Of a DNA stretch of 64,000 bases, positions 1 through 39,599 are shown piece by piece. This stretch comes from Haplodiscus bocki. Lineage: Eukaryota. Location of the stretch: NCBI GenBank assembly GCA_965655095.1, contig OZ296648.1:56668001-56732000 (forward strand). The letters run 5' to 3'. How positions within the stretch are numbered: position 1 is the stretch's first letter; each line of letters opens with the position of its first letter. The position numbers and the translations under genes are program-made. The notes below the pieces were generated by a model that had not been told where the DNA came from, did no database searches, and was given only the letters and a program-made list of their open reading frames with translations.

Positions 1-680
1 TAATTAGTACTACATATCAAATTCAAGACGACAAAGATCCATCAATCATAAAAACAGTACACCGTAACCATTTGGTTGAATATTACCCTAAAGAAGAATC
101 GCTTTCAGCTATTATTAAGGAACATGTACCGCATGACCAACAAAATGATAACGATTTTTTTGAACTGTTCTTGGATCAAAGAATTGGGAAATTGAACAGT
201 TTTACTGAACAACCCACAGAGGACACCACTTCATTCCCAATACGACCATTATCTTCAACTCCGGCAATCCTTTCACATAAACGTGACAGTCTCACCAGCA
301 GTGACTCAGGAGTTGGCTCAGCTCAAGTTTTTTCGCCAACCCTCCCGTCACTCCTGAACAACCACCACAACTTCCACAGGAGACGGCGACTCAACAGCCG
401 TCAACTAAGGCTCCAACCAGACCACTTACTGCAATACAACAATTTCTGCGGAACAGTCGAAAGTCCAAAGCGAGAGATCCAAGGTACGTCAGAACTCAGC
501 CACAAGATCCTAATTCTCAATTGGCTCTTCGTACCCTCACTCGCCAGCGTTATACACTCTAACAGACAACAATTTGTTGTTGCTCAGCAATCGCCTAAAT
601 TCTCTCTTTTTTTTTTTTTAGAAAAATCACTACCTACTTACCTACTTTTTCATTCATTGTTTTTAGTACAAGATGCCTAA
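1..680 (+). pseudogene. pol: pol 3' end: integrase C-terminal (GPY/F-SH3-like) region plus low-complexity tail
   Basis: Translation TTYQIQDDKDPSIIKTVHRNHLVEYYPKEE matches the Y.I...VH.N.L..Y end of Gypsy integrases, followed by an S/P/T-rich tail. Confidence 0.75.
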
Positions 681-1053
681 TTGTCACAAATTCTACCCTA
701 ACTCTCAGTGGACGGTTACCCACTGTTGGCCCGACCTGGCTTTTGACAAAGTGCTATTAACTAAACTTTACTGGAGTTATTCAACACAAATAGTCCGTGT
801 GTGTTTCACACCTCTTCTGAAACCTACACTTAAACGGGATCTCAAGCGCAAAAGTAACTTTCAAATCAACTTTACCTCGCCTGCTATGCTAAGACTTTAC
901 GAACTTTTGTGTTACCATTCTCTTGAACATTTAGATCCAATTATGGACGAATTTCTTACTTTTGTTCAATCTACACTATCTTCACTTTATTGTTTTCCAG
1001 CAATGTCAGCCGTTTTACCCGACGCAGCAGATGGCACTTTCAACCATCCTTGA
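673..1053 (+). CDS. accessory ORF of unknown function (126 aa)
   Basis: ATG-initiated open ORF immediately after pol; no motif recognised. Confidence 0.4.
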   Translation: MPNCHKFYPNSQWTVTHCWPDLAFDKVLLTKLYWSYSTQIVRVCFTPLLKPTLKRDLKRKSNFQINFTSPAMLRLYELLCYHSLEHLDPIMDEFLTFVQSTLSSLYCFPAMSAVLPDAADGTFNHP

Positions 1054-2181
1054 ACTTTACAATGTTTTCTTCACACAAACTTTGGAATGTGAAGTCCCAA
1101 AACAAGTGAATACTTCCCAGGCAGAGGATTGGTAAAAACGTAATAAGAACCAAACCAACGGTGGAGGATAACCTCGCCGGCAGGAGTTGCTTAATCAGGC
1201 ACAGGAAGCCCCGGCCTCCACCAGGGACCTCACGCGCGCCCGGAAGACAGCTTGTGGCCAAATGTCCATAGCCAGAGCAAACTCCTCCCTCTGCTCCATC
1301 GTGAGATCAAGCCACCCGGCGAGGATTGCCCGCAGTTCGAACAATAGCACCTCACTGAACTCGGACAAGACCATCGCTTTCCAGTTTTCTCCATAGAAAC
1401 GGACCAGGAAGCTCCGGAACATCGCCAACACCGGGGCTTCTTGAACTGGTGCTTCGTCATTGCCCCGATGATACCTCATGAAGGCTCTCCAACTTTCTAA
1501 TCAAAAGATGGTGGGCTAGCCGAAGATATACAGGGAGCAGCCAGACGAACCTTCCGCCGTGGAGTGGAAGAGCGGGAACTCCGGGAGAGGGTCAATCCCG
1601 TCCCAACGTACCACCTCCACGACAACTTCAGGGGGTTTGCCCATCCTATAACAACACAGGAAGAAAGAAATGGAATAACATCCACAGCACCTAGACGACA
1701 AATGTTACCTCCATGTTTACCAAAATTGAGTTCTTGTTTTCAATCCATCAATTCATCACTTCATTGTCAACTGCAGTTACTCCCTACCCGCAAACACTTT
1801 CACTATTTTTCCCAGGAAGACCCTGCTGTGACAAAGCACAGCAGATGGAAGAAAGAATGAAAGAAAGGAAGGAAGATGAAATTATGTTGCCTGATTCCGT
1901 TTATTAGTTTTGCATGAATCCGCTTACATTTAAATCGCCTAAATTATTTGAATAAATTTATTTAATTAAACTTATTTTTAGTAAATGTCCTAAATTATTA
2001 ATTATTCATTCTTTGGAAAGTCCAACACTTGGTTTTCATTGAGACATCGTTCTCAGATGGGCTGTGGACTCAACGGCACGGAAACTACTCAGAAGAAACA
2101 GCTCAACTCAACTGATCTACAATTCAGCAACTGACAACGAAAACTGTTAATAGACAGGCATTTGGGATGTTTTCTAGTTAG

Positions 2182-2403
2182 ATGACAATCATATTCTTCA
2201 AAGTCAACGGAGACACCTTTATTCTCAGAAAAAAAACCTATGACTCAACTACGAAGCTTTTTGTTGTAAAAACAGAAGCGGTTGAAGCTGGAATACAAAC
2301 GATCTTCAAGTGCTTGCAAGGATCAGAACATTATTCCTCTGTAGACGGTCTTTACAAAAACCCTCCACCAACAGAAAAAAAAAGCCAGAAACGAATTTTT
2401 TAA
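2182..2403 (+). CDS. small accessory ORF, paralogue copy A (73 aa)
   Basis: MTIIFFKVNGDTFILRKKTYDSTTKLFVVKTEAV...FKCLQGSEHY...YKNPPP aligns end-to-end with the next ORF. Confidence 0.6.
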   Translation: MTIIFFKVNGDTFILRKKTYDSTTKLFVVKTEAVEAGIQTIFKCLQGSEHYSSVDGLYKNPPPTEKKSQKRIF

Positions 2404-2420
2404 ACGGCTACAGAGATCAA

Positions 2421-2644
2421 ATGACCACAATTTTTTTGAAACTAATAACGATTCGTACCTTCTTGAGCGCTTAACTTATAATTCAGAAACTATTGGTTTT
2501 ACAGTATTGACAGAAAGAGTTGGTGATTGGGAAAAAGTTAACTTCAAGTGCCCCGAAGAGTCAGAGCACTACTTTTTCTTTAAACGCTTTTACTTCAATC
2601 CGCCACCAGAAAACATAAAGAGTAAAAACCAAAATTTTGAGTAA
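2421..2644 (+). pseudogene. small accessory ORF, paralogue copy B (one-base frameshift in a T run)
   Basis: Adding one T at 2431-2437 gives MTTIFFETNNDSYLLERLTYNSETIGFTVLTERV...FKCPEESEHY...YFNPPPENIKSKNQNFE*. Confidence 0.6.
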
Positions 2645-2651
2645 AAAAATC

Positions 2652-2906
2652 ATGTCGTACGAGCTTAACTTGAAGTGTATTTGGCAGCATCCGACAACTG
2701 GAAACCATCTGGAGATAACCAAAATTGTTTGGGCAGAAGTTGAAAAGCCAATTATAATAGCAGTCAGAAGCGTAAGACAAGCTCAGCCCGGAACTTGGAA
2801 AATACATATCAAACAAGACACGGAAAACATGATCAACTTCTTGTCGTCTCCGGTAGAATTCACCAAGTTTCCCTTCTTTGCTAAATCTCACCCACTGCAA
2901 GAATAA
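2652..2906 (+). CDS. accessory ORF of unknown function
   Basis: ATG 7 nt after the paralogue B stop; MSYELNLKCIWQHPTTGNHLEITKIVW... Confidence 0.45.
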   Translation: MSYELNLKCIWQHPTTGNHLEITKIVWAEVEKPIIIAVRSVRQAQPGTWKIHIKQDTENMINFLSSPVEFTKFPFFAKSHPLQE

Positions 2907-3265
2907 CTGGTGAAAGAACTCATTCCTTATTGCCAGTCACTGACCCTCAGCACTGGACAATCCAGCTCGAAACGACCTAAGACTAGTTTATAGAGCTTCA
3001 ACTCAGGTTAGAAAAGCCCAATTGGCGCTTTTTTGACGAACCGGTTATAGCCCGGTTTCCCTTTTTGACAATCGATTCTAGTCCGACGTCCTTTATAAAA
3101 AGCTCGGCGTTGTTTTGCAGTAGTGGAGGAACTGCTATAAACGTTTTGCGCCCGCCTTGTCCTATTGCCCACAAAGCTGCCGGTTTGATATCGCGGCTTA
3201 CATTTTTACAGTTCATTTTTCTTAGCTACCCTCTAAAGATGGGATTTCCGCTACGTAAATTAGCG

Positions 3266-5399
3266 ATGAAGCTATTTTTTTCAAATCCTCGCGCTTACTG
3301 TCAAGGTGGTTCTCAATATAACTCCAGAGGAAGACCAGTTTGCTCCAGCTCTGAAAGTAGCTCATTTTGACTGCAGTGAGATGACTGAAAAAACTCTTTA
3401 CGCCATAAATCAGGTAATGCCATGGCATATTACGCCTGAAAAAACAGAGAGGTTAAAGTTGTGCACTACACCAACTATTTCAGAAGGGAACTAAAAGCTA
3501 CAAAATGCTGAGTACAACACCAACGAGAAAATTAACATTGCGGACACCATGATCATGGCAGCACTGATCATACTTTTGCAGGGATTACAAGTGACATTGT
3601 TATCTCTCCAGAACAATGCCGAAACCTAGTGAAGTGAAAAGACAATACCTTGCTTGGTGATTCGATTAGTTTTGGTTTCGACACAAAGAACCCCATCGTA
3701 AAAGCCTCTGGTGACCCAGCGATGACTACCAGAAGGAATGTCTCGGCAAAGGTTGGATCACTCGTGACACCTTCCTCCCTCACATGCAGACAAGAACTTT
3801 GAAAGCTACGCTAGAAAACGGAAAACTTCTATCTGATAAAGGGTTTAATTTTACCATGCGCTCTAGAAGAATTGGGATGTGAAACTACCTCGTTCGAACC
3901 CTATGCTTACATTTGGGACTATCTTGACAACTGTGCGATCTCAATTCTTTGAACTGAGGAAGTTGATATGGTAAAGCAAGAAAATAAGTATTAGGTTATC
4001 ATTGGAGCCAATTCCAGCTCTAAATTTGTATTTGAACTCAAGAACAACCCTGAGAAACAATGCGGAAAGCCAAAATCTATTTACTCTACAAACTATGATT
4101 CACTTTATATGGACCTTTTCAGCGAAGGTTTTTACATCGACACCGGGAGAAACCTGGGTCGTGATCAAAACACAGCAACAAAGATCCTACAGTATTTGAA
4201 ACCAAAAGAGAAAGGAGATTTCGATCAACTTTATGCCCATAACCCCAAGTTAGAAGGAACACAAAAGTCACAAACAGCGGACCCCGAGAACTATCTGAAC
4301 ATCGATTACGAAATGCACCTCGGGACGAATATTGATTATCTATTCTTTCAGAGCTCGCGATTAGTCCAAGCGACGGAAATACAGTCATTGCAAAACCAAT
4401 GTGAACAGGAATGTACCCAAATCTTGACTAATCTCTTGTTTGCCCTTGAAAACCCTCGTTTGGCCGGTTACATGCTAAGTGATAACCGATCAAAGATTCT
4501 AGAAACGGATGGATGCGTAGCATAGCTATACCATTGCCCGAAAGTTCACTGGCCTCTTTACACAATGAACCAGTGTTACGATAAAAATCCCAATCTTTAC
4601 AGGGGACAAATTCAATTTGTTGACCCTGTGACTCGACAAAACTATCCTCATGCTACGGCTCAAAACTGTTCCGATCGCATCAAGAACCTGTTCCATCTCG
4701 ACATGGATCAGGAAGATTCTTGGTACACTCTAACACCTGGTATTGTACATCAAAACAAGGCTGCCATGATTGGACCTCAAGATATTAACCCAGTTGCTTC
4801 TCACGCCTTAACCGGATCATAGGATTCGGGCATGTATTCCCGCAACGAGCTTGAAGGATTGTGGGATAGTATCCTTATCAATGCCGCTTCGAGGACGGCA
4901 CCTAAAAAGATTTCACAAAATATTATTGTCTACACAACTGCCCAAGAAGGAACAGGCAGTTCTCATTAAATTACCAAACAAAACGAGTTCTTTGTGGATA
5001 AGATGATTTCGCCAGGGTATTTTAACGATCAATTCTTTGACACATTTGGGCCGGTCGTTTATATACTTGAGCATTGTGGAATTTATTTCTCCGTCTTTTT
5101 GTTCATCAGACTTATAATTGATGTGGTAGTTATAGTCGTGCGTTACATGGAAATAGATAACTGGTTCCACTCTAGGGTTTGCTAAGACCCTTCTGAGTGC
5201 TTAGTACAATATTTTCTTAACAAGTGTCTCAACTTCCATGTATAACCCACGTGCTCCGGCGCTAACTGCTGTTAAACACATGGAGGTAGGTCCATGTGTC
5301 GAAAACGATATGCATGAGGTAAAAGAGGATGCGAAAAAGAAAGAAGAGCACCTCTACCCTGAAATGAGCACGATAACACTATCATTGTCATCTGTCTAA
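3266..5399 (+). pseudogene. env: envelope / class III-like viral fusion glycoprotein (chuvirus G / herpes gB-like), multiply frameshifted
   Basis: Signal-peptide-like start MKLFF/QILALTVKVVL; AHFDCSEMTEKTLYAINQV; HCGHHDH; LPCALEELGCETTS..YAYIWDYLDNC; QNQCEQECTQILTNLLFALENPRLAGY; YHCPKVH..MNQCYDK..YRGQIQFVDPVTRQ..QNC; C-terminal TM helix CGIYFSVFLFIRLIIDVVVIVV. The Cys pattern resembles chuvirus-type glycoproteins. Confidence 0.8.
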
Positions 5400-5464
5400 C
5401 AATCTGTTTTCCGTTTATTGATTTTTAGTGTTTAGATTTTTAATCAAAGGAGAGCGACGATTCA

Positions 5465-5854
5465 TTGCCTGTCTTAACCGATCTGAAATTCGACTTGCTT
5501 ACGTTGATCCCATCAACTTTGAGACAGCCAATTGAACCTGTACTACCTTTTCTCTCGCCTCCTTCAATCATTTTTTCGTCAAACCCTGCTTCACTGGACG
5601 CACAATCAGACACCGTCTCAACAACGCAGGGATTATTGTCATTTTGCTCTGCTCCTCCTTTCACCACTGACCATGTACAACCTTCAACCATTTCCACTTC
5701 TGTTGGCAAAGCTACATCCCATAGCTCACGCGCACGATCTAAACAAAAACAAAAACTACGCAATTTGCAGCGACCGGCCGGCAAAACTTACAATAACGGA
5801 AATCGACTTACAATTGCTCGAAAACACAAAAGGGAACACTGGCGAGAGCTGTGA
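5465..5854 (+). CDS. Pro/Ser/Thr-rich, basic-tailed accessory ORF of unknown function
   Basis: 129-codon open frame between env and the TRAF-like gene. Confidence 0.4.
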   Translation: MPVLTDLKFDLLTLIPSTLRQPIEPVLPFLSPPSIIFSSNPASLDAQSDTVSTTQGLLSFCSAPPFTTDHVQPSTISTSVGKATSHSSRARSKQKQKLRNLQRPAGKTYNNGNRLTIARKHKREHWREL

Positions 5855-6092
5855 AATGCCCTTGTTTCAAACTTCATCTGCACTACAGGCTGAGACCGCA
5901 ATATTCTTCCTGGGAAAAACTGTTCTGAGATACCCAACGACAGGAGTTTACCATTCAGAACACGCTCCTGCTTTCTCAGCGATTTGTTGTTCCGCTGCGG
6001 GCTTCAACTGCTAATTCAAAGCCATAACTTAAATTCTGTTTTTTTTTAATCTTAATTTTGCTTAAACGTTTGAATTTAATATTTTCTTAAAG

Positions 6093-7022
6093 ATGAGCCA
6101 TTTATTTCCTGGATCCTCTGAACTACTTGAGGAACCTACTTCGCCTGCTCAAGCACCTGCGACAGATGGAAATCCAATACTATCATCTGAAGGGGTTATG
6201 TATTCCACTCTACTACAGTTGCGCGCGCACGTGGAGAAAAATTAGAACGCACAACCCTCAAGCAACCTATTACAACGTCTCGAAAGAGACTTCGCTCTTC
6301 TACAGCCCCAGATTGAGTTACTTGAACAACCAACAACAAGTAAGTTCTCCTCAGTAAAGTCACTTGAAAAAAAAGTAGAGCCTTAGAGAAGCGTTTTTCC
6401 ACCGAAACGTGCAGATGTAGTTCGAAGCTCAACTCCTTACAACATGAGCTGTCAAACATGGGTGATCAAATTTGCCAGTTTGAGCACAGCAATTCAAATT
6501 TCATTTTGTGGAAGATCACCTCTATACAACTGCTATTTGAGCCCGCCAGATTATGGTATCTGAAGCCAGGACGGGAAAATGCCCCAAACCACTCATTTTC
6601 GCAGCCCTATTGCTTGCTCCTAAGCATATGGCTACAACTTTTATTTGAATTCACACCCCTATGAATTTGCCGCTGCTATCGGAACACGGGCTTCTATCTC
6701 TCTGTCTCTCTCTGTGTCTGCTGGGGAAATTGATGACATTCTGTCTTGGTCCATCTCAAAGACAATCCAGATCAAAGTGCGTGACCGACTGAACCCTCTT
6801 AATACCTGCAGCCAGAGAATCGAGCCCAATGAAATAACTAGACCAACCTCAGTTGTATTTTCTACAGTACCAACGGTTCGATACCTTTACTTCTCTCCAC
6901 ATTCAAAACTCTTCAATGAAACTGATGGCTACCTGTATAACGACACTACGTATCTCGATATTTCCTTTTTTGACCCGTCAATACCATCTACCCAGTCTTT
7001 TCTTCTTTTTCCTTTTCCGTAG
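6093..7022 (+). pseudogene. TRAF-like protein (coiled coil + MATH/TRAF-C domain), intronless, frameshifted
   Basis: Heptad-like LQRLERDFALLQPQIELLEQ and LQHELSNMGDQICQFE, then SNFILWKI, HFRSPI..AYGYNFYLNSHPY, IGTRASISL, AGEIDDILSWSISKTIQIKVRDRL, RPTS, YFSPHSKL..DGYLYNDTTYLDISF: the TRAF MATH motif series (IWKI, SPPF-GYK, GTHLS, GEYD-L-WPF, RP, YI-DD-IFI) in order. Confidence 0.8.
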
Positions 7023-7051
7023 AGATCTCCAATCAGTTTCAACACCTTGTC

Positions 7052-7063
7052 AGTGGGGTGAGT
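7052..7063 (+). promoter_or_regulatory. polypurine tract (plus-strand primer site)
   Basis: AGTGGGGTGAGT directly before TGT at 7064. Confidence 0.55.
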
Positions 7064-8425
7064 TGTCGCGTTAGCCGTAACGCTAAACAGTGCTAGTTCT
7101 AAATTTAGAAATGACATAATAGAAGTAATAATAATAATTTACCGTTTGAAGGGATAGCTGTTGGAGAGCGGTAATAAAGTTGGAATTGCACATTTTGAAA
7201 CCTCAAATTTTTGTTGACATGCCTCAGACGGAAATTAACGAAGCTTTTCCATTTGTTACCCCCGCTCTCGGAGTTTGATTTTGTTGCTTCCCGAACGGCA
7301 CACTTTGCTTCTTAAGAGTTCATTTTTTGACTCCTTTTGGAGGATCACCATATTTGGTGCTCATTGGCGCACGGCCTACCGTAGTTGGTCATAACCTTGA
7401 AAAGTACGAGAGCTCGGCAAAATTGAGCGACCGGCCGCCAACAGTAAAAATCATAACTTTCCTGATCAATTACCGCCGACTACCAACTCCAAAAGCAAAA
7501 ACTACTAAATTCTCCACTTTCTTCTTCTAAGATTTTGGAAACTTAGAAATTCGAAACCGCCACAGAACTTCTGCTTTCTCGATATTGGAAACTTTTATAT
7601 CTTTGGAAAAGAGACAATTTTTCAAAGAAACTCAATTATTCCAACAGTGGGAAAAGGAATTGACTATTGGCAAAAACCTATCAACTATAAACCTATTTTC
7701 ATCATTTGGAATAAAACGAATTGTTAATATCTAAAATAACCAACCCTGGTAGAGCACAGCTCACCAGATGAACTTAGTTAATTAAAATCTGGTCCGTCGG
7801 CAGATCCTCTGAAAAAGAGTTGCCACGGAAATTGCTCTGAACAAGAGCTCATTGAAACTTCCAGATACATAAAAGAAATCGCTCGGTGGTCCTTCCATTT
7901 GGGGTTTTGCCTTTTTTGACTGCCTCCATTGAAGTGAAAGGATGCTGAGTCTTAGATAAAATTCTTTACTAACCCAGTTTCGATCAGAATCAGGTTCATT
8001 GGTTATCCGATGGTAATGGCCTGAACCTAAGAGAAATCGCACGGTTGCTACGCCATAAAACAAGTTACCGTGTCTTAGTTACTAACCCAACACTTTTGGT
8101 CGGAACTGAACCAGCGGTCAATAAAACCCCTAGATTTTACTCTACGGGTTGACAACTGTGTACTGGCCTAAGAGAACTCGCTAGGTTGATTCGTTACGCG
8201 AACTATCTAGTCTTAGCTCAATTTGACTTAGAGGTTCATTTTGAAAATAAACTGTTTGAAAAGACGGATGTGTTTATTCTCCGGTCTAGCACAAACTTAA
8301 AACAAAATGATGGTGCTCGAAGGCAACTCTACTCCGACAAAGTTAGAAAAGATATTGCTTAATCTTACTGGAGCTACTATTAATTTCGTATTTCATTTTC
8401 GCGTCAATTAAAAGCGCGTGCAACA
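7064..8425 (+). repeat. candidate 3' LTR (~1.36 kb)
   Basis: Starts TGTCGCG after the PPT and ends GCGTGCAACA (imperfect terminal inverted repeat TGTyGC); AATAAA at 8120; no second copy in the window to confirm. Confidence 0.55.
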
Positions 8426-8429
8426 ATAT

Positions 8430-9140
8430 TCTCTTTGAATTTCAGCTGAAACTTTTAGACTTATTATTTTGGCATAAAATTTCTGGGTGTTGAAAAAATT
8501 TGATTGAACAGAGCTGAATGGTAAAGTGGCTAACGCTCTTACTTTGAATAATATTGGAATAGAGTGAAATTTGAACCAATTCTTCTGCGCTTAAAACAGT
8601 ACCGTCCCCCTGGTGAACTCTCTGCCAAGTTTGACAATACAAATTTTATATTCGAAGCCATAACTTTCCTAGTTTATAAATCTGCTTGCGTTGAATAAAT
8701 TCTTGATGAATTTTCTAACCACTCAATAGCAGTCGACTAAGTCCTTGCCAATGAGTTCACGCTCTATTTTGTTCACGCGGGCCAGCAAGGAAACTTTGAG
8801 GCTTAAGTTTGTTTAATCAATAACGGTAGCACACCAAGAAAGTGTCAAGTTTTTGTCTACATAAAACATGAACCGAAACCTAATCTACCACCCCGCGCGA
8901 CAGTTTGTTTTTTTTCAACTCGGGTTGTTTTTGGTGCTCCATTGATTGGACCGTGAGCCTGCAATTTTTCGTAATCGCAAAAATGGAAGATTTTGGTTTT
9001 TACTACCAGATCGTCTTCTCTTCTCTTCGTCTTTGAGATCCAACAATAGGATGCTTCTCAACGTACGGTATTGTTTTGCTTTTACTTTGGCACGTAGATG
9101 ACTTTCTGACTTGTTTCCGACATCAACCATCCTCTTCATT
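8430..9140 (-). pseudogene. highly decayed non-LTR RT fragment (probable continuation of the old element at 13092-15400)
   Basis: Weak RT-like remnants TNLSLKVSLLARVNKIERELIGKDLVDCY and ESYGF. Confidence 0.3.
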
Positions 9141-9323
9141 TTGTATATATGAGTTTAATAGATATTGAAATACCGTATATGGATTCAACGCCAGTTGCTT
9201 TGGTGATTGCCCATTTTTTCTCCTCTCAGCGTAACAAACTAAAAATCTTCAAACTGCCATTTTGTTTTTCTTTTATTTCTCAGTAAAACTTAATTGTTGT
9301 GATAAACCAATAAATACTTTCAT

Positions 9324-10154
9324 ATGAATATGGCTGATGATCAAGTCAAGTCCAGAATTGGGTGCACGACGTCTGGTGTTGGTGGTAAGGACTACTACCC
9401 GAGCATTGGCGAGCTTCTCGAGGCCGGACCAGACCAGTTCCGACTTCTCACTGGCAAACTGACCAAAGATTGGCTGATCTTTCTGCCTAAAGATACTGTG
9501 GAACACCTGAGTCAAGTTAAGTTTTCTAACTCTCTATTTTTTTCCAATAATCAAAAACTGGATGACATCAAATCTGTTTAATCACCACCTATCACATCCA
9601 ATCCTCAAGTATCTCTGTTTTTGCCGACTAGCTGGATTGATGTTGTTAAAAATTCATTGAATGAACATGACTACCATGTGGCTGCTGCTGATTGTGTTTT
9701 ACTTTATAACGTTGAAGAGAGAGCTCATGACAATCTCGGCAAGAAGGCTGTGAAAGAAGTTCCCAAGACTTTGAATGTTTCATCGAACGTGGTCGTACGC
9801 GCGAATTGTTTAGTGAAAACCAATACCAACAAACCTTTTAAACCCCGCCCTATTGAAGTAAAGCTAACTTCAAGTAAGGATGAAAAGTTGATTATGTCAA
9901 AAGTGTCCCCGCTAAAAAGTTCAGGAGTTTTTGTTAAAAACAAGTTGATGTAGAACGATTGACAGAAAGATAAAGCTCTACTGAGTCTTCGTTTTGGCTT
10001 GGTTAACTTGGGTCTCAAGCGTGATCTGTTGCGAATCAGAGATCTTAAACTGTTATTTGATGGCAAATTGCTTGATGAAAACCTCTCGGCGGATGATATA
10101 TTTGCATCGTGCCGCTCAGATGTGACATCTTCCGTGGAAAGTTCTTCCCATTGA
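9324..10154 (+). pseudogene. LINE ORF1 (coiled-coil/RRM-CTD-like)
   Basis: YYPSIGELL, SWIDVVKNSL, VLLYNVEE, KPRPIEVKL, GVFVK, RIRDLKL; homologous to ORF1 at 45015-45846. Confidence 0.7.
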
Positions 10155-12984
10155 CTTATCAACAACTATTTCCCTACTAGTGAATATTCAAGGAATGACA
10201 CCTGAAAATAAACATGTTGACTTGCTAACTCTATTGCAACTTCGCAACCTTGATTAACTTTTCTTATCTGAGACATGATTGAGTCCTCTATTTGATGATG
10301 CTTTCTGTTCTATATTTGGAACTTTCTATGTGGTGACGAGAGCGGATCGCATTCAAGGTACTCATGGTAGTATTATTATTCTCTGTCGCCGTATCTCAGA
10401 CCTAAACATCTCCGAAATAATTATCGACAAGGATTATGATTTTCCTGTTGCTGCTACGGTACAAAATTCTCATGATTCCGTGGCTCTACTCATCCTTTTC
10501 TACCTACTTCCTGTCACAGGCTCCTATAGGATACTTTTCGACTTCTTCAGTAGTTGTTTGGTGGATGTTGTTCGGAAAGCTGAAAACTTCTCCCCGCCTG
10601 ACAAGTTCAACCTGTCCCTCATCGTGCTGGGCGACTTCAACTTTCCCGACTGAGATTGGTCATCTATGTTTAGCACTAACAAGCGTGAACTTGAGTTCCT
10701 GGAATATCTCAACTCTCTTGAATTACGACCTCCTATCACTACTTGGCAAACGCATCGCTGTGGAAATATTCTTGACAACATTGTGACTAATGACAACTTT
10801 ATCACTGGTTACTCTATTGATGATAGTAGCTTAAGTCACCACTCTTCCATCATTTTTATTTACTCTTTCGATTTTAACAAACCCTATCAATATCCAACTG
10901 AATATTCGTTCAAGGACCATACCGACACGGTGAACTTTCATAATTCCAGTGAAGAGTTCAGTTTTACTTCATATACTTCAGAAGCCAACGTGAACGAGGT
11001 TTATTCGTTCGTTGCATGGAGTCTAAACACTTGTTTTCCTTTCAAAAGGAAAGTTCGGAGGAACAAACTTTTTCATTACAGCTCACATACATTTCACTAT
11101 TAGAACAAGTTGAATACAGCTAGACGAAAGTACTCTAAAAACCACATTAGAAACAATCTTGATGGTCTTCAATCGTTACAAAGGGATTCTTTGGATTCTG
11201 TTGAGTTGGATAAGACTATCTACATCAATGGATCATCAACTTCCAGCCTCAATCAATGCTTCTTGTTTTTGCACAGTCTCAAAAACCCTTATTTACCGAA
11301 GCAAATGTTTCGTTCGCAGGAGAAATTACTTCACTCTGAAATTCCAACTGCATTCAACAAATGTTTTGCTGGAAATTTCGATTTTGATTCTTATGATGGA
11401 TCGATTCAACTTATGGTGCTCTGAAATTGGATTCTGTTTTAGATTTTGTCTCCAGCTCTTCTATTACACCTGAAATTATGAGATCTAAAGAGTCCACAGT
11501 CTCTTGATTTGATGGTTTTCCAATCAAATTACTTGTAAGAGCTGCAGCTCTGTTTGGAATAATCTTCTATCCTTTATTTTGTTCCATAATCTTCTGTAAA
11601 GTTTTCCCCTCCATATGGAAAGTTGCTCGGATAACTCTTCTTTTCAAATCAGGATCACGTAACAGTATAATGTGTTATCGTCCAATTAGTTTGCTGCCTA
11701 AGATCTCTCCCATTTTTCAGAAATTGCTTTTTTGTTTCCTTTTTTTGAACTTGAAATCGAAACTACATCCCAAGCAGTTTGGCTTTCAGTCTCATAAAAG
11801 TTCTGTTCGACAACTTAAAAACTATCTGGAACGTGTTTATCAAGAGAAATCAATAAATCGTTCTTCAGTTTATTTTGACTATGAAAAGGCCTTCGACAAG
11901 GTCCCTCATTCTATCCTGTTCAGAAAACTTAGTCTCTACCTTGCTTTTGGTTTTTGTTCGCTCTTTGAATCTTACCTTATGAATAGATATCATAATGTGC
12001 ATGTCAATCACTTCAGTTCGGATCTCATACCTTGCGTCAGTGCTGCTCTTCAGGGCTCTGTTTTTGGACAATTTTTTTTATGTTTGTTAATGATTTACCA
12101 TCTATCTTCTCGGACTGCATGGTGTGGCTGTTTGCTGATGATTTGAAACTCTTATTTTCCAACCTCATTTTCACGATGATCTTTGGCGACTTTATTCCTG
12201 GAATCTAGTAAATGGAATGATCGTAAACTCAGACAAAACCAAAAGTATTCACTTTACAGGTACCACTCAAAGAACATTTCCGGCTGACCTTCTACTTGAG
12301 AACGTGAATTCGCAAAAAGATTTGGGTGTGTATGTTGGATATGGTCTCAAATGGAACCATCACTTTACATAAAAACTGCACAACGCCCGTGAAAGCTTCT
12401 TTTCTCTGATGTCTAAAGTACTCTTCAACACCCCCTTTATTATAAAGTTGCAGCTGTACTATAGTAGGGTGTTATCAATTCTGCTTTATGGTTTCCCAGC
12501 TTGGTATGCCGACATTACATCTCTGAAGCGCCTTGAATCTTTTCAACAGTCCTGTTTCTCCTCAATTTTTGGACGCAAGCGATCTTACCAAGAGCACCTC
12601 AAACGATCACAGTTTCTGCCTATTTGTTATCACCTGGAGTACATTACATTCTCTTTCCACTGTCAACTTTTACATGATAAATACATTTTCAATTTTACTT
12701 CTTATTTAGTGTTTCAGGTACCCGAACGTCAACTCCGAGCTTCAATGACCAATATACTCCGCTATCTGAACCCAAAGCGTTATGAAAACGTTTCTTTTTT
12801 CGGTCGTGCTACCACCATGGCAAACTTCTTGTTCAGAAATAACATAATCGATGGTTTCAACAACTTCAACAAACATGCAGTCGAAGCCTATCTTCTGCAG
12901 AAAGAATTTAATCCTACGTTGTCTTGTTCAATTTTCATTTGTTGTACTTGCAGTCAATGTAATATCATGAAGAGTATTTGTTAA
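10155..12984 (+). pseudogene. LINE ORF2: apurinic-type endonuclease + reverse transcriptase
   Basis: LGDFNFPD, THRCGNILDNIVT, LSHH; YRPISLLPKIS, QFGFQ, YFDYEKAFDKVPH, QGSVFG, WLFADDLK; terminal CSIFICCTCSQC. Confidence 0.9.
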
Positions 12985-13011
12985 CGAAATTTGGATCTCG
13001 AAAGAGAATTA

Positions 13012-13017
<6 letters not shown>

Positions 13018-13091
<74 letters not shown>
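13018..13091 (+). repeat. (CT)n microsatellite forming the LINE 3' tail
   Basis: Seen directly; ~35 nt after the ORF2 stop. Confidence 0.95.
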
Positions 13092-17208: not shown

Positions 17209-18550
17209 TTAGATAGCCTTTCCAACATCACAAAACTTGTTAACTGCAACCAAAGATAATCTTACTTCCAAAACAATGAGTTCTAGAACGTGTTCTGGAA
17301 AAAAATTTGAGGTTTAGCTGCAGTCTCAGTGGTTGTCCAACTGGTTCTGGGTAATGACAATTTTCAGTAGCATCTTGCATTGATTTTGAATCAAAAACCA
17401 GCACATGGTGTTTTTTGAACTTATCAATCGGATTGAGGGTATATCTTCTTGAAAGTTCATTTTTTTCATTGTCGTAATATATGGGTGAAAAATGTCAGCA
17501 GCGTTAAAGTCTACGATTGGCTGACTTCCTTTGAATTTTTAATTTGTCTGATATCGATTTACTGATACCTGATTGGGTTTTCAGTGTACGATCCAGTGAC
17601 CGAAGTGTTTGTATTCATTGCAATGGCAATTCGAAGAACTGGAGCATTGTTAAAAATGTTTCCCCCAAAAAACTCGTTTTTTTTCTGGAAGCGGTGATAA
17701 ACGTCTTTGCGAAAGTCTCCAAATGATTGTACTCCCTGGGAGTATATGCAAGTGTGTCCTTTCTTTTGATGAGGTAATCATTCTTGTGAGCAACACAACG
17801 AGTGTAAAACGAACAACCAACATTTCCAGGACTAACGTTGGCGTTAGCACTAACCATGTTAAAGTGAGGTCGGGATTTGATTAGACTGAGGCTATGTTTC
17901 CTATTTGGATATAGCACTTCAGAAGTAGAGAAAAAGTCTAGCCACAGTTTACCATACAACATAAAACCGCCGGGTCTACTAAGCATTTTCATTCTCCTCG
18001 TAGTGGAAGTCTCATAAAAAAGTGCCTCCATGTTCTCATCAAGAAATTCGACATAATCAGACCCCGCCCAGTGCAAAACCCTTTCGAACGTAGAGATGGC
18101 TCATTTGAAGTTGTTGGAAATATAGAGTTTGTACGCAAAGAGTCCATTTGAGTCGTAAATTTGCAGATTGTTGATGTACACCTCAACATTGAAAAAAAAT
18201 TATTGCAAATTGTTGTTTACATGAGTAACAAGAAAAACTGGAACGTCTTCCTCTTCCTCCGTTTTCTCATCCGCTTTTGCCTTTTCTTTTTGCTCCTTTT
18301 AACTTCTTTGCTATTATGAGTATCGTAACCACGACTTTTGACGGAATTCAGTTTCTAAGCTACATAAAATTGTCCCAAATCAACGTATTGGTTCCGATCC
18401 GTTTGAATATCAAACCCTGTGCAGTTTTTATCAAGTGAGGTTTTAGATTGAATTTCTTGTTCGTGGGACGACAAGGCATCGTCGACTACTGGGATTTTTC
18501 CTCCAAGTTATGCCAAATTTGCCACAAAAGTTGGTTTGAAATGATTAACC
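17209..18550 (-). pseudogene. double jelly-roll major capsid protein
   Basis: PVVDDALSSHEQEI..DIQTDRNQYVDL; MLYGKLWLDFFSTSEVLYPN..LIKSRPHF; YNHLETFAKTFI; collinear with the MCP at 57868-59207. Confidence 0.75.
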
Positions 18551-18559
18551 AGAAACGTT

Positions 18560-18890
18560 TGTAAAACCATTTCTTCGTAGCCAACTGGTTTGTTTGGTAC
18601 AATATGTTGGACTGACTTTCCTCTGCTCTCTACCATTACTCAACTGTTTTCTTGGAGTTTGTTTTACCAAACTATCTGCTGTGCTCGCTAAAGGTTTTGA
18701 ACTTTCTACAACCTCTGCTTTTTGTGGCGCCGCAAGTTACATCGAATCATCACCAACACGTTTTGCTACTGGTACGACATGTTTACGTAAGAATGGAATT
18801 GCTGTTCTCCCAATAAATTGTGCAGTTCCACGCTGTCGACCAAAACCGCTAATTTGAGGAGTTTTGAAGCAAACATCTCCTAACGTGTTT
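18560..18890 (-). pseudogene. small basic core-like protein (pX/pVII-like)
   Basis: GFGRQRGTAQFIGRTAIPFLRKHVVPVAKRVG; same position as the ORF at 57332-57718. Confidence 0.6.
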
Positions 18891-19688
18891 TTATTTTAAA
18901 ATGATCATTGGGAGTTTTTCTAGACGTCAACACAACTCGGGTAAAATCGACAGATACCAAAGAGTTTTTCAAGGCTTGTGTTTCTCAAGTCTAAGTGGTT
19001 TTTGTGAAGTTATTTTTTGAACAGCGGTCTAAATTGTAGGTTGCTAAAAGTCTGATACTTCATGTATTGTCCAGTAGTTAAACTTTCTCCAGATTTTAGC
19101 TGGCGGAAAAAAGGACAGCAGAGCAACATAGAAGAATTTGTGTTCCCCAAAACATCAATCAAGTCTGTGTATTTCTTGAGAGAAGGTTTGTGGACAGAGT
19201 CATAAACAAAAATTGGCTTGTGAGGTTCTTTTTGTCTCAACAATCCTTCAATTTCATTGCCAACATTGCTTCTAAAAAAGAGACTGAAATCTGTTTTAAA
19301 TATTGCGAGACCCGATCCCTCATATGCGAGTTGAACTTCATCTTTTTGCATTCTCTGAGATACTTTGACTACGATAGAAATTACTGTGTGATTGTCTTTC
19401 ATGAATGAGCGTGTTCAAGGCTTCCACAATTTCGGTAACTGAATGGTATAGACCGCGTTCCAGATAACAAAATTTCTGACGAGTCTGAAGATTTTGAGTC
19501 AAAAAAATCTTTTTTTCCCTCTGTATTAAATTGGTACAATCATGGGTAGGCTATTTCAGAAGTTGCAACCACCCGTTGCTCCTCTAGATTCAGTTGCTCC
19601 ATCAAAAATTCTCTAGAGGAGCTGAGCTTATTGTCTGAAAACGTTTCGCAGATGCATTAGGAAGCAACTCTTCTGTGAACGAGTTCAT
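18890..19688 (-). pseudogene. minor capsid (penton) protein
   Basis: MNSFTEELLPNASA; EQLNLEEQRVATSEIAYP; YTDLIDVLGNT..LLCCPF; YQTFSNLQFRPL. Confidence 0.7.
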
Positions 19689-19699
19689 TGTAAACTTAC

Positions 19700-20480
19700 A
19701 ATAACTAACTCTTTTTGATTAAATATGCCACGTATAATCTCACCTTATCATCTTTTTTTTGTATACAGTTTCCAAAGTTTCTTGCGTAAATTGTGACTTG
19801 TAAACTTTTCGGAATAGCTAATCAAACCTTGAGACGCAAAATATATCTCTCAATCAAAGTTTTAGATTTCTCTACTCCAGTAGGGGTCTGTTGTAAAGAG
19901 TGGACAAAAAGTCGGAATTCTTGTCATCCTTTGGTTACAAATCAATCGAGCATTTCTTTCTGGAAGTAAAAGTTATGACACACTGGGTCTCACTCATAAT
20001 AAGGTGATTTTTTAATTCCTTGAGTTTGATAATTTTTTTCAACTTTTCAGCAAACTCGGTCTTTTTCAAAACCCAACTGTTTATGAGACATCTTTTTCAA
20101 TCAGGTTTTGAAACGCTCTTAGAGTCTGTTTCGAATCTTTTGTCTTTATTCCCTGTGAACCTACTGTTCGATCTAAGAAGTGTTGACCAACTACTAGAAG
20201 CGTTACGCCATTTTTCTTTGTTGCCAGTTAATCAACAAGAGCAAGATCTAAAAACCGAAGTTTTATTTTGGACCTACCAAAAGCCTTCATTTTCTTTAAT
20301 TTTTGTGTGGTCCAATTAAATTTTGCGTAAAAAGTCTTTGATTGCGAAAACCGTTTCACTTTTGATACTGGCGGATTGCTAGTTTTTGATAAATTGCGCA
20401 CAAATCCATAAGCAGCAGCACCTTTAGTGTACAGCCTTTGCCATTTCCGCCGTTCAGTTCTCGAAAACGACCCAGTTACC
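19700..20480 (-). pseudogene. retroviral-like integrase (no PHD finger)
   Basis: LYTKGAAAYGFVRNL..SKVKRF..FYAKF; FLDLALVD; LLVVGQHFLDR; WVLKKTEFA. Confidence 0.7.
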
Positions 20481-20483
20481 CTT

Positions 20484-20860
20484 CTATTTGGTTTTTGCAA
20501 TCTGGCTCAAAACCAGAGTCAGAGATACTCCAGCAACGTCAAGTGAGGTAAAGCAAGTTTCGAGAACGTCTGCATTTTCTCGACGCAGTTGTTGAGCCAA
20601 GTCTGACAAAAACACTCCGGTTTCTACACCATCCAGTTTTAGAGTCTGCGAATATGAGAGCGTGACACGTGGATGAGACAAAACTTTGTCAACTAAAAAA
20701 CCTGCTTTGGCAGAAAAGTTTGATACCTTCCTTTTTTAACGAACCAAATTGGTCCGTACTCAGCTCAGAACATTGGATGTTCCCGCTTTTTATAAGACTG
20801 AGTATTCAAACTTTTGTTGTTGTACACAGGAATAGGGACGAGAAAAACTGCTCCATATCA
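20484..20860 (-). pseudogene. conserved uncharacterised Polinton protein
   Basis: PRVTLSYSQTLKLDGVETGVFLSDLAQQL resembles the syntenic ORF at 54235-54902. Confidence 0.5.
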
Positions 20861-21129
20861 AAACAAATAAGTAATGGCTGGAGGAGTAACAACATTTATT
20901 AGTTGAAAGCATTTTTAACTTATCTACTTTGATTCCAAGTTGTTCTCATTAGAGAGAACAACAGAACTCTGCTTTGAATGTTTCTCTCGTGATGTCTTTT
21001 CATACTCTGCAGGTTTCCTTTGAGCAGACTTAAAATGACTTTCCAAAAAACCGGGTGAATTTTCTCCAGCTAGACTCAAAGAAATGACTTTGGCATTTGT
21101 GGGAAAATGATTGAAGCACTTGGAGAGTA

Positions 21130-21790
21130 GGGAAGTTTCGTTTGTTTATCGTCCAACGGGTTTAATTGCTTCAACCGTTCATGGATATAAATTTTTGAGG
21201 GGATAAAACCAGTAATTGTAATGTAATGTAATCGGTGTTATGTTCGTGGTGACAAGTCAATCAGCAAATGACCCTAGCAAACAGACATTGCATCTCATAA
21301 CCTGTCAACCAGTTCTGCTATGAGCCCCGCTTAGGCACTAAACGAACTGGTTTTTATTACATCACGTGGGGTTTTAAAGAGAACGAATTGCGTGATTTGG
21401 AGCTCAACGTTTTGCCCTAGTTTAATTTGATGAAACAAGTTGTGCTTAATATAAATAGTATTGAGAGTACGATGTTCCATTGCGGTGGGAAAAATAACGA
21501 AGGCGTTCAAAGTGCATATTTTTTCACACGAAACGTCAAAGATCACTATTTTTTTCGTATCGTTGTTTTCCAACGAATCGGTAAATTCAAGAATTTCATT
21601 TTGAAAAAAACTCAATATTTTTGAATGTTTTTTGCACAAAATCGTCAATCGCCCGAAAAAATTGATGAAAAAAATAAATTTTCTCCAATTTTGGTTGAAA
21701 ATTTCCAAGTTTTAACCAAATGCAAATGAGCTACTATTTTGCGGTCTCGGAGGGTCCATCCAACGTTCTAAAGACGTGATTTATCGAAGA
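21130..21790 (-). pseudogene. A32/FtsK-like packaging ATPase
   Basis: Walker A remnant GPSETAK; Walker B IVIFD; EHRTLNTIYIKHNLFHQ; VLFKTPRDV. Confidence 0.8.
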
Positions 21791-22139
21791 AGTCAAATTT
21801 TCCATATTTTGGCAAAAATAAAAAACATCCGGCTAATCTACACAAAAATACCACCTGAACAGGTGAACCGTCACAAGTCTTGCAAAGAAGAATTTTCCCA
21901 ATGCAACCAATTAAGATCAACAAATTGACAAAATTTGGGACGAAAAGCCGATCAGTGATCTAGAACAGGTTTGTTTCAAACAAGCCGGCGATTTTTTCTC
22001 TTCATTGATTTCGTTGCAAACATTTTTGCTCAAATTAACGTTACCCTCTTGATCGGTCATCCAGCTTTTATGCTCAATTTCTCGTTATTAAATCTTGAAA
22101 AAAGTGAAGCATTTTACAACATTTATTTACGTAGACACA

Positions 22140-22630
22140 AACAATACGGAACACAAAACAAAATTTACAACTTCAAGTGCTGCATTGTCCTGTCACCAAA
22201 CAATTTTTTCTCTCGCTCTGCCTAGTTACGTGTAGTCTCGTGTCGCAATGGGTAGCTGAAACCAATCCACACTTCCTTATCTGATTCCAGAAGCTCCTGA
22301 AATTTGGGACAGCTATCGTCATCCAAGTTTTCTATCACTCTATCATTTAATTTGCTGAAAAGGTTACATTTTTCTGTCCCCCTTCGCCCCTTCGCAAATT
22401 ATTTGGCTTTTTTATTTTTAGGGAGAATGTTTTAGAGCTCACTGTAATCCAAATTTTCGATGTTTCACCAAGTACATCCAAATTTCTTGTACACCATAAA
22501 GCTTGTTTTGTCGGTTTACACCTTTTGGAGCACAGAATGAGCAACCCTTAACATTCTCATCAATTGAAACTCCCAACGCTTCATTAATATTTCAGGTTGC
22601 AAACTTAATATTCAGGAAAATGCATGGCAT
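22140..22630 (-). pseudogene. DEDD-like exonuclease-family accessory protein
   Basis: MPCIFLNIKF..EALGVSIDENVKGCSF; KPTKQALWCTRNL; ENLDDDSCPK; YPLRHETTR. Confidence 0.5.
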
Positions 22631-23459
22631 ACTGCGCCAAAAGCCGACATATTTGAAAATGGTAGGCACAAAGAGTTTTACGTAAAAGCGAAAAAGTAAT
22701 CCAGTCACGTGACCCAACAAACATGAATTTGGTCCTCGTCTTTTCATGTGACAAGGATTTTACCACTATGTGGTTGCAATGATCCAGCAGCATCCTGTAG
22801 TTTTGCATGTAGTCTAAATACTTTGGAGTGACAAGAAGTAAACTCCAAGTACAAGTCCCTACAACCAATGGTCCCACTAATTTGATCCAACTCACGTAAA
22901 GGAGGTGTAGCTACGCAACAGCGACATGCACTTAGAAACAAGTTTTCGCGAGCACTATTGTGTTCAAATGACAATTTGAATTCCAAGTATGATCGAAATA
23001 TGCTCATTAGAAGGGAACATCCAATGCTGGCGGAATTTTCTTTCAGATATGAACAGTTGTTTCATCCAGTACAATGCACCTCTTGGGCACCACGTCAATG
23101 TACTTGAAAAGAAAATTTTCTTTAGAAAAATGCTCTTTTGTGAATTGTCTTTTTTAGCTGAATCTCCGAATTTTTCGGATAAACCTTTTTTTGGGATCGG
23201 TAAACGACAATGTTCAACTTGTCTGTATCTGTCTTGTAGTTTACACCTAGCCTTTTCCTACCGTCGTAAATTAACCATTTTAGAAAGAAATCGCTTTTTG
23301 AATCAGACTTCTCAAAACCTGGCAATTGTTGCATTTCCACTAGACTTGGTGTATATTTTTGGCAGAAATTCTGGATTTTGTAAGTGCAACATGAAAAAGT
23401 CTCAGGTTTGATTTTAACCTCAGAAAGATTTTTTTCCCAGTGTCCCAAATCAACCCTAC

Positions 23460-30707: not shown

Positions 30708-30729
30708 ATATGTATTTACATAACATAGA

Positions 30730-39560: not shown

Positions 39561-39599
39561 CAGATAAAACCAAAAAGCGGAATAGACACTAAATCGGGA

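What the first reader, a model, noticed from the sequence alone, without database searches (positions are those of the whole stretch)
1..8425. Complex endogenous retrovirus-like Gypsy element: chuvirus/gB-like envelope, accessory genes and a TRAF-like gene
Seen: ~6.4 kb of co-oriented, intronless ORFs between the integrase end and the PPT/LTR, including a signal-peptide and TM-anchored Cys-rich glycoprotein and a MATH-domain gene. Known: insect errantiviruses use baculovirus F-type env, and chuvirus-G or gB-like envelopes are described mainly from BEL/Pao elements. Inference: a complex invertebrate retrovirus-like lineage with an independently acquired class III fusogen and several accessory genes. 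I cannot confirm it is undescribed.
Basis: partly seen in the sequence, partly recalled or inferred. Interest (0 to 1): 0.9.

Follow-up and report, generated by a model that had tools for sequence, protein, structure and literature searches.

The report
Retrovirus-like jumping element carrying TRAF gene
This is the decayed right-hand half of a virus-like jumping element in an animal genome that, besides a herpes-type membrane-fusion gene, carries small extra genes and a shortened copy of a host immune-signalling gene (TRAF); each ingredient has been seen before in such elements, but this retrovirus-like layout was not found in the papers searched.

Summary
Positions 1-8902 are the 3' half of a Ty3/Gypsy-type LTR element: integrase tail, a 2.7-kb block with at least one true small gene (112 aa), a class III (chuvirus/gB-type) env, a RING-less TRAF (coiled coil + MATH), a purine tract and an LTR. 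Env and TRAF are broken here by stops and frameshifts, yet full-length relatives exist. Fragments from other copies tile integrase-to-env and TRAF-to-LTR. All 17 env relatives that share a contig with a TRAF relative fall in this copy's env clade (17 of 43, against 0 of 77 outside), so TRAF looks like a sub-lineage capture. The LTR more likely ends at 8902 than 8425, which puts a further broken ORF in U3. gB-type env in Gypsy elements is already described as widespread, and planarian Burro elements already combine TRAF-C with a mononegavirus-like env, in another order. RT, 5' LTR, target-site duplication and host could not be checked. Most likely function: env for cell-to-cell spread, TRAF as a signalling decoy (inferred). 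New variant of a known kind.

The parts
1..562 (+). 3' end of pol: integrase C-terminal (GPY/F-like, SH3-type) region and low-complexity tail; one frameshift near 345; gag, PR, RT, RH and the integrase core lie upstream of the window
   Evidence: PF22938 E 0.028 in the window; relatives hit PF22938 and PF24626 below their cut-offs; relative P0318 best matches Ty3 Gag-Pol integrase, E 0.0036; frames
673..1053 (+). Candidate accessory ORF A (126 aa, may continue past a frameshift); unknown function
   Evidence: ATG 7 nt after an acceptor-like AG; one relative matches in this frame at 61%; no Pfam or PHROG hit; coding status not proven
1195..1650 (-). Candidate antisense accessory ORF (about 150 codons, 2 stops) in a GC-rich stretch; sense frame 1 (1405-1860) is the alternative reading
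   Evidence: 40% hydrophobic, 13% acidic, against 17-26% hydrophobic in the five other frames; per-frame identity to other copies did not discriminate; no family hit
2182..2644 (+). Two overlapping candidate small ORFs (2182-2403, 2345-2644)
   Evidence: Sequence present in other copies (P0264, P0296); coding frame not established; no family hit
2652..2990 (+). Accessory gene E, 112 aa, one stop in this copy; predicted four strands then two helices; function unknown
   Evidence: 39 of 150 listed representatives map in this frame, many starting at the same Met, 30-85% identity; AlphaFold2 pLDDT 73; no significant fold match
2991..3238 (+). Conserved spacer before env with TATAAA at 3094 and 3136; candidate internal promoter or splice-acceptor region
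   Evidence: Motif scan; spacer sequence is carried by P0254 and by the distant env P0080; function inferred
3239..5399 (+). env: class III (chuvirus/xinmovirus G, gB-like) fusion glycoprotein, about 717 aa in intact relatives; broken here by about five frameshifts and at least eight stops
   Evidence: PF24664; 452 relatives at E<=1e-5; hydropathy; Foldseek hits almost all viral glycoproteins, led by chuvirus/xinmovirus G, from a poor model; breaks
5444..6014 (+). Candidate ORF(s) between env and TRAF: Ser/Pro-rich with a basic tail (5444-5854), then 5853-6014; no start codon visible for the first
   Evidence: no Pfam/PHROG hit; no homolog search was aimed here and no fetched protein covers it
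6093..7022 (+). TRAF-like gene, 306-308 aa in intact relatives: short linker, coiled coil, TRAF-C/MATH; no RING or zinc fingers; broken here
   Evidence: PF22486, PF21355; 121 relatives; best solved matches TRAF5, TRAF1, TRAF3; 24 of 120 listed are full length, 0 of 24 with a zinc-finger-like pattern
7052..7063 (+). Polypurine-tract-like sequence (9 of 12 purines) directly before the LTR start
   Evidence: Sequence; read across by 4 relatives of the TRAF protein
7064..8902 (+). Proposed 3' LTR, 1839 bp: U3 about 7064-8700, TATAAA 8675, AATAAA 8694, U5 to 8902
   Evidence: TGTCGCG at 7064 and its reverse complement ending 8902 each occur once on the 64-kb plus strand; 105 of 2000 shuffles; other copies match 7064-7500, 7555-7656 and 8105-8242; pairing with a 5' LTR not testable
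7743..8361 (+). Broken ORF of about 200 codons inside the proposed U3, with three short similar motifs (L/I-K/R-E-I/L-A-R)
   Evidence: P0393 from another copy matches 46 residues at 80% in the same frame; no family hit; link to the element rests on the LTR end

Best explanation
A decayed copy of a large env-bearing Ty3/Gypsy LTR element (an 'errantivirus' in the operational sense) with a complex-retrovirus-like layout: pol, an accessory block, env, TRAF, PPT, and an LTR with an ORF in U3. Shown: the gene identities, their order in this copy, recurrence of the integrase-to-env and TRAF-to-LTR neighbourhoods in other copies, and restriction of the env-TRAF link to one env clade. Inferred: the active ancestor made a full-length RNA from the 5' LTR and shorter RNAs (spliced, or from internal promoters) for the downstream genes; Env trimers on budding particles fused them with neighbouring cells, most plausibly soma to germline; one sub-lineage captured the 3' part of a host TRAF mRNA. 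The TRAF protein keeps the trimerising and binding parts but not the ubiquitin-ligase RING, so it most likely acted as a decoy that joins or out-competes host TRAFs and dampens TNFR/Toll/RIG-I-type or cell-death signalling in the producing cell (my odds for this step alone: about 0.45). That sub-lineage then burst and decayed, while sister lineages without a detected TRAF stayed young.
For: Env: PF24664 E 1e-20, 452 relatives, class III hits. Gypsy type: integrase is last in pol and relatives match Ty3 integrase and PF22938/PF24626. One unit: among 392 mapped proteins every tested junction from 600 to 3250 is spanned by 1-10 proteins, and 7030, 7064, 7300 by 6, 4, 4; 10 of 120 TRAF relatives match past 7075. 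Linkage: 17 of 48 env rows at >=72% identity share a contig length with a TRAF row, 0 of 72 below (Fisher p 2e-8; cut chosen after seeing the data); mean 0.05 matches at shifted lengths; all 17 lie in one clade with SH support 100 that holds this copy (17 of 43 against 0 of 77). TRAF: coiled coil + MATH, no zinc motifs, core 78-80% identical between copies against 67% for the N-terminal linker. RING is the ligase core and viruses target TRAF complexes (PMC3697994 passages); a truncated duck TRAF3 isoform inhibits by competing for self-association (PMC5863512 abstract).
Against: No RT, gag, PBS, 5' LTR or target-site duplication in the window. Integrase Pfam scores are all below the curated cut-offs. 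No fetched protein spans 5400-6090 or 7500-8902 continuously, so env-TRAF linkage is by shared contig length, not by distance; 26 of 43 in-clade env rows and 98 of 114 distinct TRAF contigs have no partner in the lists; one contig carries 5 TRAF rows and no listed env. The env model is poor (pLDDT 42, TM-scores 0.1-0.2; VIA best Z 4.5, gB at Z 4.0). Only 1 accessory ORF is shown to be coding. The 8902 end has p about 0.05 only. No DNA of other copies, so no dN/dS. The TRAF-C groove differs from TRAF1 at two aligned positions recalled as receptor-contacting (alignment; role recalled), so it may not bind the usual motifs. The TRAF-bearing clade is the decayed one, which does not suggest a lasting advantage.
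Confidence: 0.7

Rival explanations
1. An ordinary gB-type errantivirus that picked up a host TRAF fragment as a passive passenger; most of the 'accessory block' is non-coding spacer or shadow frames.
For: Frame tests did not establish coding for ORFs other than 2652-2990; the TRAF clade is star-like and decayed, and the highest-copy env clusters (850, 275, 268 members) lie outside it, while the largest TRAF cluster has 29 members; LTR elements are known to capture ORFs downstream of env (PMC6431247 passage).
Against: 24 of 120 listed TRAF relatives are full length with the same start and end, and the folded core is more conserved than the linker; best solved TRAF matches are distant (E 7e-12), implying long residence or fast change with the fold kept; gene E is kept down to 30% identity.
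Confidence: 0.2
2. Same element, but the TRAF protein is an active adaptor (TRAF1-like) that builds pro-survival signalling to keep producer or target cells alive, or binds the Env tail or Gag to organise budding.
For: TRAF1 also lacks the RING and works as an adaptor (PMC3697994 passage); Burro carries TRAF-C with BIR and BCL2-like domains, pointing to apoptosis control; aligned groove residues differ from TRAF1.
Against: No BIR or BCL2-like match among the ORF pieces scanned; no binding evidence; sister env clades appear to do without it.
Confidence: 0.25
3. A mosaic: an env-bearing element ending near 5400-6090, and a separate TRAF-bearing repeat that often sits nearby.
For: Nothing fetched spans 5400-6090; most TRAF contigs have no listed env partner; one contig holds 5 TRAF rows.
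Against: Sharing is confined to one env clade (17 of 43 against 0 of 77), which independent insertion would not give; no PPT/LTR-like end was seen between env and TRAF; P0332 joins LTR sequence (7219-7428) to internal sequence (1755-2084) in one copy; only 120 of 452 env rows were listed, so missing partners are expected.
Confidence: 0.07
4. The element is BEL/Pao (like the mosquito chuvirus-G elements) or a free-standing chuvirus integration rather than Gypsy.
For: Env is closest to chuvirus/xinmovirus G; such glycoproteins occur in BEL/Pao elements (PMC7642597, search listing only; cited in PMC13524379); RT is unseen.
Against: Integrase-side relatives match Ty3 integrase and Tf2/p58-type C-terminal models, and none of 15 matched any other integrase-tail model at E<=0.01; only 12-16% identity to the top viral G hits and hundreds of element-borne copies argue against a recent virus insertion.
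Confidence: 0.04

Closest known systems
HSV/gB-type 'ancient errantiviruses' (Chary and Hayashi, PMC13524379; read: abstract, section 14 whole, first parts of sections 5, 6, 9, term passages; supplements not read)
   Same: Ty3/gypsy pol followed by a signal-peptide/TM-flanked class III env without an obligatory furin site; many copies per genome.
   Different: Here 2.7 kb of extra sequence separates pol and env and 1.7 kb separates env and the LTR; their prefilter allowed at most 1000 nt between POL and ENV and 10 kb in all, although some groups were extended by 3000-5000 nt. The words TRAF, MATH and accessory do not occur in the main text.
Burro/GYPSM1 giant Gypsy elements of planarians (PMC6431247; read: section 7 whole and term passages)
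   Same: Gypsy element with MATH_TRAF_C and an env similar to arthropod and fish mononegavirus glycoproteins; in Dugesia tigrina TRAF-C is a separate accessory ORF.
   Different: Burro has env in frame between gag and pol in a polyprotein of about 5000 aa, TRAF-C upstream, plus BIR, BCL2-like and ankyrin parts; here env and TRAF are separate genes after pol. Shared ancestry versus convergence was not tested: no Burro sequence was on hand.
Tor elements of Oikopleura (PMC4402516; term passages)
   Same: Env-bearing Gypsy elements with env from a spliced RNA or an internal promoter between pol and env, expressed next to the germline.
   Different: No accessory block or TRAF in the passages read; env type differs or was not compared.
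Cer1 of C. elegans with CERV (PMC10309623; abstract) and bdelloid LTR elements with extra ORF3s (PMC5408684; abstract)
   Same: Invertebrate Gypsy elements with regulatory or captured extra genes.
   Different: One regulator or one ORF3 rather than a block of genes on both sides of env; no sequence similarity tested.
TRAF1 and RING-less TRAF forms (PMC3697994 passages; PMC5863512 abstract)
   Same: Coiled coil plus TRAF-C without RING.
   Different: Element-borne, intronless as far as seen, no zinc finger, aligned groove residues changed.

Membership tests
Ty3/Gypsy (Metaviridae) | RT groups with Ty3/Gypsy | not testable with these tools
   RT lies upstream of position 1; no full Pol was returned
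Ty3/Gypsy (Metaviridae) | Integrase is the last pol domain | tested here: met
   Integrase tail runs to the stop at 562; excludes Copia order, shared with BEL/Pao
Ty3/Gypsy (Metaviridae) | Ty3-type integrase with GPY/F-SH3 C-terminal module | tested here: met
   P0318 best solved match Ty3 Gag-Pol E 0.0036; PF22938/PF24626 in 8 of 15 integrase-side relatives at E<=0.01, all below cut-off; name GPY/F recalled
Ty3/Gypsy (Metaviridae) | Two matching LTRs, PBS and target-site duplication | not testable with these tools
   5' end outside the window; genome-contig scan empty; other collections closed
Ty3/Gypsy (Metaviridae) | PPT followed by TG...CA LTR with short inverted ends | tested here: inconclusive
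   9 of 12 purines before 7064; 7-bp inverted repeat to 8902 in 105 of 2000 shuffles
gB-type errantivirus (operational, PMC13524379) | env of class III (HSV/gB-type) with signal peptide and TM anchor | tested here: met
   PF24664, hydropathy of intact relatives, Foldseek (low-confidence model)
gB-type errantivirus (operational, PMC13524379) | Five-domain trimeric gB fold with fusion loops | tested here: inconclusive
   Model pLDDT 42, pTM 0.25; VIA Z 4.0 to HSV gB, rmsd 9.7 over 218 residues
gB-type errantivirus (operational, PMC13524379) | Intact gag, pol and env | tested here: not met
   This copy is broken; intact env exists in relatives; gag and most of pol unseen
BEL/Pao (Belpaoviridae) | BEL-type integrase C-terminal region (DUF5641; assignment recalled) | tested here: not met
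   No such model among hits for 15 integrase-side relatives at E<=0.01; RT untested
Burro | env in frame between gag and pol in one giant polyprotein, TRAF-C upstream | tested here: not met
   env starts 2.7 kb after the pol stop and TRAF follows env
Burro | Sequence kinship of RT, env or TRAF with Burro | not testable with these tools
   No Burro sequence available
TRAF proteins | TRAF domain: coiled coil plus TRAF-C beta-sandwich | tested here: met
   PF21355/PF22486 above cut-off; TRAF5 match over residues 105-290; heptad bias 0.68 in best register
TRAF proteins | N-terminal RING and zinc fingers (absent RING in TRAF1) | tested here: not met
   0 of 24 full-length relatives have a zinc-finger-like pattern; 1-6 Cys each; an upstream spliced exon is not excluded
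TRAF proteins | Trimer formation and receptor-peptide binding | not tested
   No job spent on it

The most novel reading that the evidence does not exclude
An invertebrate Gypsy lineage has independently evolved full complex-retrovirus organisation: several spliced or internally promoted accessory genes (one antisense), a class III env, a nef/sag-like gene inside U3, and a captured RING-less TRAF that works as an innate-immune antagonist; together with Burro this would make TRAF capture a repeated solution of enveloped retroelements in animals without adaptive immunity, and such elements would be missed by screens that cap the pol-env gap.
Probability: 0.3. Interest if true: 0.75.

Novelty: new variant of a known kind. 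Interest (0 to 1): 0.5.

Why it matters
Accessory genes that counter host signalling are the mark of complex vertebrate retroviruses and are barely known in invertebrate retroelements. If the TRAF here is a working decoy, it points to the host pathway that senses enveloped retroelements in a simple animal, and the family offers a natural comparison: sister clades with and without TRAF in the same set of assemblies. It also shows that env surveys with tight gap limits can miss the most gene-rich elements. If TRAF is a passenger, this is one more gB-type errantivirus.

Tried and rejected
Self-comparison of the window found no second copy of the LTR or of the internal genes. A scan of bacterial and archaeal genome contigs with the env alignment found no relative. 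Env profile against solved sequences: 0 hits at E<=1. Env model against the wide structure set: best Z 4.5, uninformative. Gene E: no Pfam, PHROG or solved-sequence match of weight; Foldseek none at E<=0.001, with PC4/PUR-like chains only at E about 1; VIA best Z 6.5 on the two helices only; a PC4-like nucleic-acid-binding role is a lead, no more. Gene E as a homodimer: no verdict. The protein atlas gave no answer for gene E. Per-frame identity as a test of which frames code at 673-2640: inconclusive, and biased because the query was frame 3. Codon-position test on the U3 repeats over 30 codons: no pattern (22/16/20). The search across 7064-9301 returned only 2 proteins, too few to map the LTR end. 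Acceptor-like sites precede several ORFs but equally strong ones lie inside genes; not tested statistically. Shorter LTR ends (7350, 7742, each CA followed by TGG) were considered; 7350 is unlikely because copies with TRAF continue to match beyond it; 7742 is not excluded. No tRNA genes or RNA families of weight. First tree run did not finish; FastTree was used, with SH-like support only. Literature: 8 searches showed no paper on this layout; subscription journals, Repbase and Dfam are not covered, and the host lists in the supplements of PMC13524379 were not read.

Full report
Observation. The first 9 kb were read and translated. They are not open reading frames any more. Env has 5 stops in 447 codons of its longest in-frame stretch and about five frameshifts; TRAF has at least three frame changes and a stop; gene E has one stop. 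The copy is a fossil, and its env tip in the tree is long (0.22).

Env. The X-read stretch found 452 proteins at E<=1e-5, of which 120 were listed, all unnamed and from one source class, 48-81% identical. Several are full length (700-742 aa) with an N-terminal hydrophobic stretch, a C-terminal one at about 601-640, 18 Cys, three sequons and no R-x-K/R-R motif in the two checked. An AlphaFold2 model from 49 of the 120 was poor (pLDDT 42). Foldseek with it still returned viral glycoproteins, chuvirus and xinmovirus G first (E 5e-12 to 1e-8, 12-16% identity), then herpes gB and orthomyxovirus GP; in the PDB all 39 rows shown were thogotovirus GP, GP64 or gB. TM-scores were 0.1-0.2 and the wide structure search was uninformative, so the class III call rests on Pfam plus this consistent ranking, not on a good model.

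Gypsy or BEL. RT is outside the window. Relatives of the integrase tail extend upstream into the integrase core; one of them best matches Ty3 Gag-Pol (E 0.0036), then foamy-virus integrase, and 8 of 15 scanned hit Tf2-type SH3 or p58 C-terminal models, all under the curated cut-offs. This favours Ty3/Gypsy without proving it.

One element or a mosaic. No DNA of other copies could be had (empty; two collections closed), so two indirect tests were used. First, gene callers often read through broken copies into neighbouring sequence. Mapping all 392 fetched proteins to the window, each of ten junctions from 600 to 3250 is spanned by 1 to 10 proteins, and 7030, 7064 and 7300 by 6, 4 and 4; 5400, 5800, 6090, 7500, 7700 and 8425 are spanned by none, and no search was aimed at 5400-6090. 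Ten of 120 TRAF relatives match past 7075. Second, the tables give the length of each protein's contig, a near-unique label. Seventeen of 120 env rows share a length with a TRAF row (16 distinct contigs), against a mean of 0.05 at shifted lengths; they are 17 of 48 rows at 72% identity or more and 0 of 72 below (p 2e-8, cut chosen afterwards). A tree, which needs no cut, puts all 17 in one clade (SH 100) with this copy: 17 of 43 inside, 0 of 77 outside. Same contig is not the same as adjacent, 26 in-clade rows have no partner, and one contig has five TRAF rows with no listed env. Still, linkage confined to one clade is what a captured gene gives and chance neighbours do not. The largest env clusters (850, 275, 268, 133, 128 members) are outside that clade, and no TRAF cluster exceeds 29 members, so the youngest families seem to lack a close TRAF; a more distant one could have been missed.

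TRAF. The search gave 121 relatives; 24 of the 120 listed are 304-310 aa. They consist of a 35-aa linker, a helical region with heptad bias and TRAF-C; none of the 24 has a zinc-finger-like pattern. Mean pairwise identity is 67% in the linker and 78-80% in the core, a mild sign of constraint. Best solved matches are TRAF5, TRAF1 and TRAF3 (E 7e-12 to 7e-8). In the alignment to TRAF1 two positions that I recall as receptor-contacting are changed.

Accessory block. Gene E (2652-2990) is real: 39 of 150 listed representatives map in its frame, many from the same Met, down to 30% identity. Its model has four strands and two helices (pLDDT 73) and no significant structural match. The other candidates are conserved as sequence among copies but their coding frames are unproven; the query was frame 3 and identity did not separate frames. 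At 1195-1650 the minus-strand frame has the most protein-like make-up. Acceptor-like AG sites lie 7 nt before ORF A and 1 nt before TRAF, and TATAAA boxes lie 100-145 nt before env, but similar sites occur inside genes.

LTR. TGTCGCG at 7064 follows a purine-rich tract. TATAAA at 8675 and AATAAA at 8694 give a sensible U3-R-U5 layout with about 190 bp of U5. A broken ORF of about 200 codons at 7743-8361, matched in frame by P0393 from another copy, would then sit in U3, as nef and MMTV sag do (comparison recalled). This is a proposal at p about 0.05; an end at 7742 is not excluded.

Mechanism. Shown: identities, order, recurrence and clade-restricted linkage. From established retroelement biology: LTR transcription, reverse transcription primed at PBS and PPT, integration. 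Inferred: subgenomic RNAs for the downstream genes, as in Tor elements (PMC4402516 passages) and Cer1 (abstract); Env-mediated spread between cells, which PMC13524379 itself calls unknown for gB-type elements; and TRAF as a decoy, because the RING is the ligase core (PMC3697994 passages) and a truncated TRAF3 can inhibit by competing for self-association (PMC5863512 abstract). Adaptor and passenger readings remain open.

Comparison and verdict. gB-type env in Ty3/gypsy is described across many phyla and argued to be ancient, with 114 gypsy elements bearing Chuviridae-like glycoproteins. Burro already joins MATH_TRAF_C and a mononegavirus-like env in a Gypsy element, though as gag-env-pol in one polyprotein with TRAF-C upstream. 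Bdelloid elements capture varied third ORFs (abstract). What I did not find in eight searches is this order: pol, accessory block, env, stand-alone TRAF, LTR with an internal ORF. Repeat databases, subscription journals and the supplements of PMC13524379 were not seen and may hold it. The host was not established; the rest of the window (LINEs, Polinton-like pieces) fits a repeat-rich animal genome. Verdict: new variant of a known kind, interest 0.5 rather than 0.9.

Noticed in passing
window 9306-13091 (+): Decayed LINE (RVT_1 at 11508-12143) ending in a TC repeat, starting about 400 nt after the proposed LTR end; its first ORF resembles that of the LINE at 45171-45810 (tblastx E 1e-19).
   Followed up: partly
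window 42100-45900 (-): Second LINE with endonuclease and RT matches, also ending in a TC/GA repeat.
   Followed up: partly
window 30717-41000 (-): A second decayed LTR-type element by eye: integrase-tail-like stretch at 39157-39501, long A-rich region after it, and a 66% direct repeat (30717-31220, 32131-32639); no Pfam hit and no similarity to the element at 1-8902.
   Followed up: partly
window 53299-64000 and 17615-23957: Polinton-like fragments; only DNA_pol_B_2 at 62219-62671 was confirmed (E 1e-5), the other labels are from recall.
   Followed up: no
TRAF table, contig length 480267 (P0122, P0154, P0219, P0231, P0233): Five TRAF-like rows on one contig with no listed env partner: a tandem array, a nest of copies, or a host cluster.
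   Followed up: no
window 589-601 and 1933-1945: The same 13-mer precedes two acceptor-like T-rich tracts, a possible shared branch-point signal.
   Followed up: no
window 7686-7715 and 8675-8699: Two TATAAA-then-AATAAA pairs about 20 nt apart inside the proposed LTR; the first may serve the U3 ORF or end the TRAF RNA.
   Followed up: no
P0332 and P0311: Proteins from internally deleted copies: one joins LTR sequence 7219-7428 to 1755-2084, the other joins gene E to mid-env.
   Followed up: partly
window 27998-28240 and 30508-30707: A 9-nt tandem array and a 200-N assembly gap next to an AT repeat.
   Followed up: no
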